Assembly: GCF_963676685.1 (NCBI RefSeq)
Contig: NC_092344.1
Location: 4,092,001 to 4,156,000 of the forward strand
Direction of reading: 5' to 3'
Source of the DNA: Mytilus edulis
Lineage: Eukaryota
DNA length: 64,000 nt
Part shown: positions 60,001 to 64,000 of the stretch, piece after piece
Layout of the letters: every line of letters begins with the position of its first letter
How positions within the stretch are numbered: the stretch's first letter is position 1
Program-made: the position numbers

Positions 60001-63000
60001 GTATGCTCAGGTTACATGTCTATTAGTACAAGTATCAGTAAGTTTAAGGTGGTACCTAACACTACAGGGAGATAACTCTGTAAAATCAGCTAAATGTTTT
60101 AATTACATTGTGTTGTTCAGGGAATATTAAGCTTCTCAATGATCAAAATAAGTGTTTGTCAAAATGCTATATAACCAGTAAAACGGTTGGTTCAAATTTT
60201 TTGAAATTTTTATATTTTTGTAAAAGGGTCAAAGTAAATACTTTGTCAAAATTTTAAGAAAATTAAACGACCCAAATTAATTTTAGCTAAAGTGTTGGGA
60301 AGTGGTGTTAGGTACCACCTTAAGTCATCTTTCTGAAATACAAACCATACCCAATAAAACCGTATAGTAATAATGCAATTTTATTGCTTTTAACAAAGCA
60401 AAAATGGTGTTTGTTCACAGTTTCCATTTACGTTTTTCTGAAATGTTTAGATTTTGGGTACCCTTAACTCATTAAAATTTCTATTTAAAAACAGGATTAA
60501 AAAAAATATGAAACGAATCATCAGTTAAAAAAAGTTATTCAAGGCAATTTACATTTTGTTTTCATTTTTGTTCAGCTTTAAAAATAAAGATGGCAGTCCA
60601 TGAATGGAGTATTTTGTGTTTTTTTGTTTATCCACTGAATATTTAATATAAGCTTTCAATATGACTAAGGACAATTTGGAGCATATATCAATGAGGCTTG
60701 CTCAACTGAAAAATACAATAAAGAAAGGTGGTCTTTGACTATGCTTTAAAAAAATAACATAACAAAAATTAAAACCATTAAATACCACAGAAATAATATT
60801 TAAAGAAGAAAATTCCTTTTATTTTAGTATAATATATAATCCAACCAAATATGAATGTATAATAATTTGTAAAAAGGTTTAAATGAAATATATATTGAAT
60901 AAAGGTTCATCACAGATGCAAATGTTTTATGACTGTAGTTTTTAATTGGTGATTGAGAAAGGTGCTTGTTTAAAACAAAACTTGTTTTATTTTTATATTT
61001 TTATTATGTTGTTTGTGTCTTTTTTTTTATTTGTATCTCATCAGGCAAAATAAAATTTCAATTGTCATTTTATATTTTTTTATTTAATGAATTAAATCCT
61101 GAGTTTTGATTACAAATAATTGGTCCAAGGACACAGTTATCGTCCTTTGGTTTTCGTTGTCTACGAATATAGTCCCTAGTGTAAACAGTGTATAACTTGC
61201 ATGTCTTATTTGATACACTTTCCCAATTTATTTCTTGATATTAAATGCATGAAATATCAAGTAGGGGGATGTAATTACATGTAAAAAAAAATTGGGTGCT
61301 GAATCTTTATGTTAAGAAGTAAATTGGTCCAGTTCTAAAAGGTCAAATTTTAGCACGTCTGAAGCTGTCAAACTGAATTTTACACCCCCTTAACACAGAA
61401 TTGTCAATATTTTGAGTTAGAGCTGGTAGAAGTTTCTATAATTTTGATATTATTTGTCTCACTGGTAGTACACTACACTGTAAAAATCTTTTTGAGAAAG
61501 AGCAGGTGCGATTTTTTTAATTTGAATTTATTGTCTAAAAGAAATGCACTACGAAATAACTGTGTTCTCGGGCCTAAGAGATGGATTCCTGAAATCTAGA
61601 TTCTGTACTTTGGCAACTTTCCTGAATGATTTGCTGGTTTCAGTTTGTCAAACTCAATCAAAGTAAAGGATTTACATCTTTGGTTTACAGAAATTCTGTT
61701 AAAATGTGCCATTTTGGCATTCTACGGCTATAATAAGCATTTTAAAGCAGTTTACATTTTATGGCTAAGAGGCATGCTGACTTTCTATCTGACAGCTTTT
61801 TTGTTCCTGATATTTGTGTTTCTATGATTAAATCAAATTTAATTAACCATTTGTGAACTCTGGATATAGAGAAAAGTAGATTATCACAGAAAAAAAGTGC
61901 AGATATTTGTATTCACGGCCATGGTTAAACGGCCTAATAGATGTATGTAAAATGTGAAGAGCTTTGTACATCAAATCTGTAGTCCATCACAAATATTTCA
62001 CTAAATCTGTAAAAAAAGCACTTTATTATACTCAGTACACCTTACTCCTTTCATAGGCTACCATTTTTTTTCTCTGTATGACAGTAAGTGGTCCAACTTT
62101 ATGCCTATTAAGGCTAAAACTAAATGCAAGTTTTCCATTGAAAAGTGAAAAAACTGGCCATCAGACCATATTGTTTCTAAAAAAATTAAATGCAAGAGTC
62201 CTTTTGCAATTAGACTTCTTGTATCATAACGCCTTAGCATAGAAATGAGCAAAAAGTTACACATTTTCATTTCTAATAGCTTCTGTGTGCATTTTTATAT
62301 GTCAATATGGGCTACCGCCTAAATCGACTCTAAATAATTCTCAGTACTACATGGCCCAAGACCATTTTATACTCATGTGGTATGCTTTTTGACACTTTTC
62401 TATACATTTAAAGTACATTTTATATATATGAAAGAATAAATTAGGCATAAAAAACTTCAAAATCTTCAAATTGGCTGAGAAAAATGCATATTTATATAAG
62501 GCGTCCCTAAATTGGAAAATCTCTATTTTCAGGCATAGGCTTATATAAATTTAACTTTGGAATAATTACAATACATCTGATAAATAAAAGAGTGTTCAGA
62601 TGCTTTTAATACTTAATATTTGATATTCAAGAGCATTTAAAAAGCAAATTTTTGCAAAATTTAAAATTTTAAGGCCAAAATCTTGACAGTTGAAGATATT
62701 TGATTTACACGTCAAAAATAAACATTCAAATGTCTATATTAAAATGACCCTAGTGTCTCTAATATATGTCATATGGCCATGAAACTTGGCAACCTATCTC
62801 ACAATTGCCTAAGCTTAGGTTATGCAAAGTTTTATAAAGATTGGTCAAGTCTTTCTGTCCTATTAGGTCCAAGGACACAGTTATCGTCCTTTGGTTTTCG
62901 TTGTCTACGAATATAGTCCCTAGTGTAAACAGTGTATAACTTGCATGTCTTATTTGATACACTTTCCCAATTTATTTCTTGATATTAAATGCATGAAATA

Positions 63001-64000
63001 TCAAGTAGGGGGATGTAATTACATGTAAAAAAAAATTGGGTGCTGAATCTTTATGTTAAGAAGTAAATTGGTCCAGTTCTAAAAGGTCAAATTTTAGCAC
63101 GTCTGAAGCTGTCAAACTGAATTTTACACCCCCTTAACACAGAATTGTCAATATTTTGAGTTAGAGCTGGTAGAAGTTTCTATAATTTTGATATTATTTG
63201 TCTCACTGGTAGTACACTACACTGTAAAAATCTTTTTGAGAAAGAGCAGGTGCGATTTTTTTAATTTGAATTTATTGTCTAAAAGAAATGCACTACGAAA
63301 TAACTGTGTTCTCGGGCCAATTAGTCCATATGACTACCATCTATAATATTAAAGGAAGAGACCGATTTCATTCAGCCACATCTACTCTGAAACCAAACAA
63401 AGTCAGAAATATTTGTGATATGATGTATGAATGTAGTGTTTTGTACTTCCTAAACTTGTCTTTGAAACAATCTTTTTTCCACAGAAAAGCCAATTTTTGA
63501 GAAAATAACCCAATTCGGAGACCATTATCAATCAATGTCTTATACGCTTTCGTGCATGCTCAGTTGACGTAACAAATATCAAAGGGATGTTCATCTGATG
63601 GCAGCTGGAGGAGACTTTTGTATTCAGCTTTTATTTTATATGGTAAGAAGAGCTGGATTGATTGATTGTTGGTTGCTTAACGTCGAGTTCCAAATATTTC
63701 ATAATGGTAAACAAGAGCTTGTATACAGATGCTTAATGGTTTGAATTTTCTATCTGGAATATGTAAGTTGTCCATGACCACATTTTCATTGTTTAAAGAC
63801 AGCATTAAACTTCTCATTTTTTTCATCGCATGTTTTTTCCAATTATGAGTTATGGGTAAACTATATTTGATCCTATTTGGTACATAGAATCATTGCAAGG
63901 AATACAAACAATTAGAAAGAGTACACCTCCATTTTAACTTATGGTTTATCAATGCTAGATAAGGAATACAAACAATTAGAAAGAGTACACCTCCATTTTA

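What the first reader, a model, noticed from the sequence alone, without database searches (positions are those of the whole stretch)
61118..63322. Composite-transposon-like element with identical long direct repeats, each bounded by TIRs
Seen: two 453-bp direct repeats, identical by eye, each with GG..CC imperfect 19-bp TIRs. AATT flanks only the outer ends (inner flanks are TAAG and ATTA). There are no TG..CA ends, PBS or PPT, and no ORF in the 1.3-kb interior. Established (from memory): KolobokP DNA transposons have LTDRs of this size and 4-bp TSDs, and autonomous copies encode a DDE transposase and a His-Me finger endonuclease. Inference: a very recent non-autonomous derivative. Perfect repeat identity without an RT step implies a mechanism that regenerates or homogenises the repeats.
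Basis: partly seen in the sequence, partly recalled or inferred. Interest (0 to 1): 0.65.

Follow-up and report, generated by a model that had tools for sequence, protein, structure and literature searches.

The report
Non-autonomous KolobokP transposon in a mussel
This is a gene-less 2.2-kb DNA transposon with two identical 453-bp direct end repeats, an architecture described in bivalves in 2022 under the name KolobokP, so it is a clean example of a known kind and not a new one.

Summary
Window 61122-61574 and 62866-63318 are 453-bp direct repeats with 0 mismatches. Each ends in a 19-bp imperfect inverted repeat, 16 of 19 matching, with GG..CC termini; 0 of 20000 shuffles reached that score. 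AATT flanks only the outer ends. Neither repeat has a target-site duplication of its own at any length from 2 to 8 bp. The 1291-bp interior has no ORF above 78 aa and no Pfam match.

The element meets every structural criterion that Kojima and Bao 2022 (PMC9587614) give for KolobokP. These are an LTDR-INT-LTDR layout, LTDRs of about 450 bp with their own short TIRs, RR..YY termini, a 3-5 bp TSD, and a size within the non-autonomous range. A neighbouring retroelement protein is 85-96% identical to Mytilus proteins, and Mytilus is a genus the paper lists as carrying KolobokP.

Three rival readings fail their tests: an LTR/TRIM retroelement, a hammerhead retrozyme, and two independent MITE insertions.

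Two things could not be tested here: sequence identity to a catalogued KolobokP family, and the existence of a coding partner. It only bounds repeat divergence below 0.66%. Interest is low.

The parts
61118..61121 (.). Left target-site duplication, AATT
   Evidence: It equals the 4 bp after the element, and no match exists at any other length from 2 to 8.
61122..61574 (.). Left long terminal direct repeat (LTDR-L), 453 bp, GG..CC termini
   Evidence: 0 mismatches to 62866-63318; blastn 100% identity over 453 bp.
61122..61140 (.). Left TIR arm of LTDR-L; outer end of the whole element
   Evidence: pair I15, 16 of 19 complementary to 61556-61574.
61234..61261 (.). 28-bp near-palindrome inside LTDR-L (12 of 14 per half); a lead only
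   Evidence: pair I8. The DNA fold of 61215-61335 gives z = -2.0, with 7 of 200 shuffles folding as well.
61556..61574 (.). Right TIR arm of LTDR-L (inner end)
61575..62865 (.). Internal region (INT), 1291 bp, 30.6% GC, non-coding; starts TAAG and ends ATTA
   Evidence: 0 of 42 frames scanned had a Pfam match at E <= 0.01; no Rfam match.
62866..63318 (.). Right long terminal direct repeat (LTDR-R), 453 bp, identical to LTDR-L
62866..62884 (.). Left TIR arm of LTDR-R (inner end)
63300..63318 (.). Right TIR arm of LTDR-R; outer end of the whole element
   Evidence: pair I3.
63319..63322 (.). Right target-site duplication, AATT

Best explanation
The 2197-bp element at 61122-63318 is a non-autonomous monomer of a KolobokP-type DNA transposon, laid out LTDR-INT-LTDR, in a Mytilus-like mussel genome. 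Shown: two identical 453-bp repeats in direct orientation, each with both TIR arms and GG..CC ends; a non-coding 1291-bp interior; and one 4-bp duplication, AATT, around the whole unit with none around either repeat. Inferred: a KolobokP DDD/E transposase encoded elsewhere in the genome paired the outer left TIR of the left repeat with the outer right TIR of the right repeat. It then inserted the whole unit at a 4-bp staggered cut, and repair of that cut made the AATT duplication. Because each repeat has both TIR arms, each is also a potential 453-bp MITE, the 'solo LTDR' of the paper. The perfect identity means that the two repeats last shared a template recently. The simplest reading is a young insertion copied or moved from a source whose repeats were already uniform. 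The alternatives are homogenisation by unequal crossover or gene conversion, or re-formation from an LTDR-INT circle recombining with a solo LTDR. The paper proposes all of these and none has been demonstrated.
For: Anatomy. All structural criteria stated in PMC9587614 are met. The LTDR is 453 bp against the major class of about 450 bp. The TIR is 19 bp imperfect against 11-18 bp perfect or imperfect. The termini are GG..CC against RR..YY. The TSD is 4 bp against 3-4 or 4-5 bp. The length is 2197 bp against 1738-3261 bp for the non-autonomous families of C. gigas. Host: the best named hits of a neighbouring retroelement ORF are Mytilus edulis, M. galloprovincialis and M. coruscus at 85-96% identity. 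The paper lists M. galloprovincialis and M. coruscus as KolobokP hosts and counts five families in M. coruscus. The element came in as one unit, since neither repeat has its own TSD at k = 2-8 while the whole has AATT. A full-text search for 'long terminal direct repeats' plus 'transposon' returned 12 papers. Only the KolobokP paper uses the term for a DNA transposon, judged from the listed titles and abstract starts.
Against: No sequence-level link to any catalogued KolobokP LTDR or to a transposase or His-Me nuclease gene could be made. No eukaryote DNA collection is on hand, the paper's supplements are closed and Repbase is not on hand. The window contains no second copy and no recognisable Kolobok transposase or His-Me nuclease, although Pfam may lack a Kolobok transposase model. 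The interior shows no remnant of KolobokP genes. A 4-bp TSD is not exclusive to Kolobok (recalled). AATT is palindromic, so it is weaker TSD evidence than a non-palindromic 4-mer. The assembly cannot be checked against reads.
Confidence: 0.8

Rival explanations
1. A newly made composite, or 'macrotransposon'. Two solo 453-bp LTDR/MITE copies landed about 1.3 kb apart in direct orientation at some other locus. The same transposase then moved the pair here together with the host DNA between them. Under this reading the interior is captured host sequence and not a deletion derivative of an autonomous element.
For: The interior is non-coding and has no Pfam match. Its GC content of 30.6% resembles the window's 33%. 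The inner flanks TAAG and ATTA are AT-rich 4-mers of the kind an old TSD half would leave. The paper reports that solo LTDRs are common and probably mobile.
Against: The paper describes established non-autonomous KolobokP families of this size, so no special origin is needed. Two independently inserted solo LTDRs would have to be identical over 453 bp. Nothing in the window bears on where the interior came from.
Confidence: 0.12
2. A non-autonomous LTR retrotransposon of the TRIM or LARD kind. The identical LTRs were made by reverse transcription and an integrase made the 4-bp TSD.
For: Identical direct terminal repeats, a 4-bp TSD and a non-coding interior. A TGG lies 7 nt after the 5' repeat in the + orientation.
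Against: The ends are GG..CC and not TG..CA. Each repeat has a 19-bp TIR, which the paper says LTRs lack apart from TG..CA. There is no polypurine tract in either orientation, at 3 of 15 and 6 of 15 purines. No TGG lies within 25 nt of the repeat in the - orientation. The window has no tRNA gene against which to test a primer-binding site.
Confidence: 0.04
3. An assembly artefact: one 453-bp MITE next to unique DNA, with 1.26 units of a 1744-bp stretch falsely duplicated.
For: Perfect identity of the two copies. The window offers no independent read support.
Against: The duplicated stretch begins and ends exactly at TIR-bounded GG..CC ends. The outer flanks carry a matching 4-bp duplication that the inner flanks lack. 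That is the signature of an insertion and not of a collapse or expansion error. The layout also matches a published element type.
Confidence: 0.03
4. A hammerhead-bearing retrozyme or a Penelope-like element with pseudo-LTRs.
For: Direct terminal repeats around a non-coding core. Retrozymes in plants have 4-bp TSDs (recalled).
Against: Rfam gave 0 matches at E <= 10 over 60000-64000 on both strands, so no hammerhead was detected. The TIRs are unexplained by this reading.
Confidence: 0.01

Closest known systems
KolobokP lineage of Kolobok DNA transposons (Kojima and Bao 2022, PMC9587614), non-autonomous families
   Same: LTDR-INT-LTDR layout. LTDR in the class of about 450 bp. Short imperfect TIRs inside each LTDR. 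RR..YY termini. A short TSD around the whole unit. Length inside the reported non-autonomous range. A bivalve (Mytilus-like) host.
   Different: Nothing structural differs, apart from a TIR one base longer than the quoted 11-18 bp if its three mismatches are allowed. A sequence match to a named family and a link to a coding partner are untested.
Canonical Kolobok transposons
   Same: RR..YY termini and a 4-bp AT-only palindromic TSD.
   Different: Canonical Kolobok duplicates TTAA specifically and has plain TIRs without LTDRs. Here the TSD is AATT and the ends are long direct repeats. The paper says KolobokP lacks strong target preference.
Bacterial composite transposons and IS26 pseudo-compound transposons
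   Same: Two copies of a TIR-bounded unit in direct orientation bracket other DNA and move as one piece. Each end unit can also act alone. The comparison is made in the paper.
   Different: In bacteria the end units (IS elements) encode the transposase. Here the end repeats are non-coding, and in autonomous KolobokP the genes sit in the interior.
TRIM / LTR retrotransposons
   Same: Identical direct terminal repeats, a short TSD and a non-coding interior. Solo repeats and tandem multimers also occur in both kinds, according to the paper.
   Different: There are no TG..CA ends and no polypurine tract, and a long TIR sits in each repeat. No reverse transcription step is implied.
Maize Ac/Ds macrotransposons (recalled, no call)
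   Same: The ends of two nearby copies of one DNA transposon are used together to move the copies and the DNA between them.
   Different: Those are sporadic events at one locus. KolobokP keeps the paired-repeat layout as a lineage-wide trait across 7 phyla.

Membership tests
KolobokP | [quoted passage not shown] | tested here: met
   453-bp direct repeats at 61122-61574 and 62866-63318 around a 1291-bp interior.
KolobokP | LTDR length of about 450 bp or about 660 bp | tested here: met
   453 bp.
KolobokP | Each LTDR has its own short terminal inverted repeats (11-18 bp, perfect or imperfect) | tested here: met
   19 bp with 16 of 19 complementary. 0 of 20000 shuffles reached that score. All four arms were found by motif search, against 0.05 expected.
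KolobokP | Termini 5'-RR ... YY-3' | tested here: met
   GG ... CC at both repeats.
KolobokP | TSD of 3-5 bp around the whole insertion | tested here: met
   AATT on both outer sides and none around either repeat alone. Chance is about 0.006. Caveat: the 4-mer is palindromic.
KolobokP | Non-autonomous member: size about 1.7-3.3 kb, with no transposase or nuclease gene of its own | tested here: met
   2197 bp. Longest frame 78 aa. 0 of 42 frames scanned, out of 53 frames of at least 25 aa, had a Pfam match at E <= 0.01. The 11 frames left out lie in or reach into the second repeat.
KolobokP | Host within the known range (bivalves above all; Mytilus listed) | tested here: met
   A neighbouring retroelement ORF is 85-96% identical to proteins named Mytilus edulis, M. 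galloprovincialis and M. coruscus. This is an inference from a transposable-element protein, not from a host gene.
KolobokP | [quoted passage not shown] | not testable with these tools
The window has no such gene. The prokaryote contig scan gave only chance hits.
Canonical Kolobok | TTAA-specific 4-bp TSD | tested here: not met
   The TSD is AATT. The paper reports weak target preference for KolobokP, so this does not count against KolobokP.
LTR retrotransposon (TRIM/LARD) | TG..CA LTR ends | tested here: not met
   GG..CC.
LTR retrotransposon (TRIM/LARD) | Polypurine tract just upstream of the 3' LTR | tested here: not met
   3 of 15 purines in the + orientation and 6 of 15 in the - orientation.
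LTR retrotransposon (TRIM/LARD) | tRNA primer-binding site just downstream of the 5' LTR | tested here: inconclusive
   A TGG lies at +7 in the + orientation and none lies within 25 nt in the - orientation. The window has no tRNA gene to compare.
Retrozyme / Penelope-like pseudo-LTR | Hammerhead ribozyme in the terminal repeat | tested here: not met
   0 Rfam matches at E <= 10 over 60000-64000.
Two independent MITE insertions | Each copy flanked by its own TSD | tested here: not met
   No flank match for either repeat at k = 2-8.

The most novel reading that the evidence does not exclude
The two LTDRs are identical because KolobokP transposition passes through a form that carries one LTDR only, for example an LTDR-INT circle, and the second LTDR is copied from the first at or after integration. 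Repeat identity would then be reset at each move, as in LTR elements but without reverse transcription. This copy, with 0 differences in 453 bp and an intact TSD, would be one data point for that, and a sign that the family is active now in Mytilus.
Probability: 0.12. Interest if true: 0.55.

Novelty: already known. Interest (0 to 1): 0.18.

Why it matters
On its own it matters little. It is one well-preserved copy of a transposon type published in 2022, found in the animal group where that type is commonest. It is useful as a clean reference case, because intact TSDs, identical repeats and both TIR pairs let the layout be read without ambiguity. It also bears on a question the 2022 paper left open, namely how the paired repeats are made and kept alike. 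That question can be approached descriptively by comparing repeat divergence within copies against divergence between copies across a whole mussel genome. One copy cannot answer it.

Tried and rejected
Rfam at E <= 10 over 60000-64000 gave 0 matches, so the hammerhead or retrozyme idea was dropped.

ARAGORN found 0 tRNA genes in the window, so a primer-binding-site test was not possible.

A Pfam scan of 42 of the 53 stop-to-stop frames of at least 25 aa in the element gave 0 matches at E <= 0.01. The best were three chance-level rows at E = 0.07-0.16. The 11 frames lying in or reaching into the second repeat were left out.

blastn of the element and of both flanks against the window found no other copy and no empty-site paralogue.

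About 35 are expected by chance, and none resembles the element beyond the motif. It led nowhere.

The protein Atlas search on a neighbouring retroelement ORF gave no useful taxon: best score 0.89, with Arthropoda the commonest phylum.

DNA folding of the LTDR gave z = -1.7 and of its palindromic core z = -2.0. Both are marginal, so the palindrome is kept only as a lead.

A second pair of repeats about 470 bp long, at 48977-49443 and 50242-50706, looked like another LTDR pair by size. It has no TIRs, the unit continues upstream, and the repeats are separated by an unrelated TIR element, so it was rejected.

Full report
**1. The observation**

Window 61122-61574 and 62866-63318 are 453-bp direct repeats, 1744 bp apart start to start, with no mismatch. 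Identity ends exactly at the first G and the last C.

The two ends of each repeat are inverted repeats of 19 bp with 16 of 19 positions complementary (pair I15). None of 20000 shuffles of the repeat reached that score at its ends. A degenerate motif made from the two arms hits the window four times, exactly at the four repeat ends, against 0.05 expected.

The flanks read AATT|repeat|TAAG ... ATTA|repeat|AATT. Neither repeat has matching flanks at any length from 2 to 8 bp, while the whole unit has a 4-bp match. The chance of such a match at this base composition is about 0.006.

The inner ends of the repeats lack it and the direct-repeat identity stops before it. The target-site-duplication reading is therefore preferred.

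The element is 2197 bp and the interior 1291 bp. The longest stop-to-stop frame is 78 aa, and the longest ORF with a start codon is 70 aa.

**2. The surroundings**

The window is 33% GC with one N run at 7401-7545, which I left alone. It is dense in repeats:
- a BEL/Pao-like LTR retroelement that holds a nested DIRS-like element;
- a 27-bp satellite;
- LINE-like pieces;
- MITE-like repeats.

I found no host gene with a Pfam domain among the 91 frames scanned, 17 and 74. I also found no Kolobok-type transposase and no His-Me/HNH nuclease, though Pfam may not model the Kolobok transposase.

One intact retroelement ORF has its best named relatives in Mytilus edulis, M. galloprovincialis and M. 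coruscus at 85-96% identity. Other bivalves follow at about 45-50%. The window is therefore from a Mytilus-like mussel. This is an inference from a transposable-element protein.

The window holds no second copy of the repeat or the interior and no empty-site paralogue of the flanks.

**3. What the element is**

Kojima and Bao 2022 (PMC9587614) define KolobokP. I read the abstract, Background, Results parts 1-2 of 3, Discussion part 1 of 2, and found passages. Their definition has these parts:
- The element is a Kolobok DNA transposon with long terminal direct repeats of about 450 or about 660 bp.
- Each repeat has its own TIRs of 11-18 bp and 5'-RR..YY-3' termini.
- TSDs are 3-4 or 4-5 bp.
- Non-autonomous families are 1738-3261 bp in the Pacific oyster.

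The lineage is richest in bivalves. The paper lists M. galloprovincialis and M. coruscus as hosts and counts five families in M. coruscus.

The element here meets every one of the structural criteria (see the membership table) and sits in a listed host genus. A full-text search for 'long terminal direct repeats' with 'transposon' returned 12 papers. Judged from the listed titles and abstract starts, only this one uses the term for a DNA transposon. A search for 'KolobokP' returned 2 papers, this one and a 2026 review that restates its model as awaiting experimental confirmation.

**4. Rival readings**

*LTR or TRIM retroelement.* The ends are GG..CC and not TG..CA. Each repeat has a long TIR. 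The 15 nt before the 3' repeat hold 3 of 15 purines in the + orientation and 6 of 15 in the - orientation. A TGG occurs only 7 nt after the 5' repeat in the + orientation, and none occurs within 25 nt in the other orientation. The window has no tRNA gene against which to test a primer-binding site, so that one item stays inconclusive.

*Retrozyme or Penelope-like pseudo-LTR.* Rfam gave no match at E <= 10 over 60000-64000.

It is rejected because neither repeat has its own TSD while the pair shares one.

*Assembly duplication.* This cannot be excluded without reads. It is unlikely, because the duplicated stretch is bounded exactly by TIR ends and carries an insertion signature.

*A newly made composite.* Two solo LTDRs might have carried host DNA here. 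I cannot separate this from an established non-autonomous family using one copy. The interior has no coding remnant: 0 of 42 frames scanned, out of 53, matched at E <= 0.01. Its GC content is close to the background.

**5. How it most likely works**

The layout and the single outer TSD are shown. The rest is inferred.

A KolobokP transposase encoded elsewhere in the genome pairs the outer TIR of the left repeat with the outer TIR of the right repeat. It inserts the whole unit at a 4-bp staggered cut. Each repeat has both arms, so it can also behave as a 453-bp non-autonomous element. The paper argues this from the excision footprints of solo LTDRs.

The paper does leave open how the LTDRs are made and kept. 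It offers unequal crossover, an LTDR-INT circle recombining with a solo LTDR, and nuclease-induced unequal crossover. One copy, however, only shows that LTDR-to-LTDR divergence is below 0.66% at 95% confidence. If the repeats had diverged by 1%, identity would be seen with probability 0.011. At 0.2% divergence the probability is 0.40. A young family whose source copy had uniform repeats explains the data without any special mechanism.

Each LTDR holds a 28-bp near-palindrome at 61234-61261, nested within further inverted repeats. The paper speculates that the nuclease may cut a semi-palindromic site in the LTDR. The fold statistics here are marginal, at z = -2.0 and -1.7. This is only a lead.

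**6. What stayed unchecked**

I could not make a sequence comparison with the 228 catalogued KolobokP families, because the paper's supplements are closed and Repbase is not on hand. Those supplements may already contain this very family.

I could not search any eukaryote genome or the closed metagenome and viral collections. Copy number, solo and multimer forms, coding partners and empty sites are therefore unknown.

**7. Verdict**

The kind is already known and has been described in this host genus. Interest is low at 0.18.

The boldest reading still open is that repeat identity is reset at each transposition through a one-LTDR intermediate. I put this at about 0.12. It would be of moderate interest to transposon specialists if a genome-wide comparison of within-copy and between-copy divergence bore it out.

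Noticed in passing
window 13788-28252: A BEL/Pao-like LTR retroelement on the + strand. Its direct repeats of about 300 bp, at 13788-14085 and 27951-28252, are 94% identical. Pfam finds DUF1759, DUF1758, Peptidase_A17, Integrase_H2C2 and DUF5641. Its coding region is read in several separate ORFs and is interrupted by other elements. I did not count the breaks. Described only.
   Followed up: partly
window 14595-19815: A DIRS-like retroelement on the - strand, nested in the element above. 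It has 167-bp inverted terminal repeats at 95% identity. Pfam finds RVT_1 and gives weak hits to RNase H, a Dam-like methyltransferase and a tyrosine recombinase. The ORFs lie in more than one frame. Breaks were not counted. Described only.
   Followed up: partly
window 29846-34106: A satellite with a 27-bp unit and higher-order periods of 55, 82, 109 and 136 bp. It has about 81 copies in 30486-32681, with strong negative GC skew.
   Followed up: no
window 36000-42200: LINE-like pieces on the + strand, with Exo_endo_phos_2 and RVT_1 domains on separate ORFs. A zf-RVT ORF also lies near 21.5-22.3 kb, inside the BEL/Pao-like element.
   Followed up: no
window 48900-50706: A repeat pair of about 470 bp, at 48977-49443 and 50242-50706, is 87% identical and has the size of an LTDR, but it is not one. 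It has no TIRs, and the unit's tail recurs just upstream at 48900-48975. Between the copies sits an element of about 770 bp with perfect 11-bp TIRs, flanked by GGTTA on both sides.
   Followed up: partly
window 60037-60323 and 44511-44787: A MITE-like repeat of about 280 bp, 85% identical between the two copies. The copy 0.8 kb upstream of the element has 22-bp inverted ends at 95% complementarity (pair I2). It is unrelated in sequence to the LTDR.
   Followed up: partly
window 61234-61261 and 62978-63005: A 28-bp near-palindrome inside each LTDR, nested in longer inverted repeats at 61222-61327. Its fold z-score of -2.0 is marginal. It could be a protein-binding or cleavage site, but nothing here tests that.
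   Followed up: partly
window 63897-64000: A 40-bp unit repeated exactly at a spacing of 64 bp, running off the end of the window.
   Followed up: no
window 48007-48465 (+) and 53942-54376 (-): Two ORFs of about 150 aa with no Pfam match. They were not examined further.
   Followed up: no
one search hit table: Several close relatives of the mussel retroelement protein are filed under bacterial symbiont MAGs (Candidatus Thiodiazotropha). This looks like host DNA binned into symbiont genomes.
   Followed up: no
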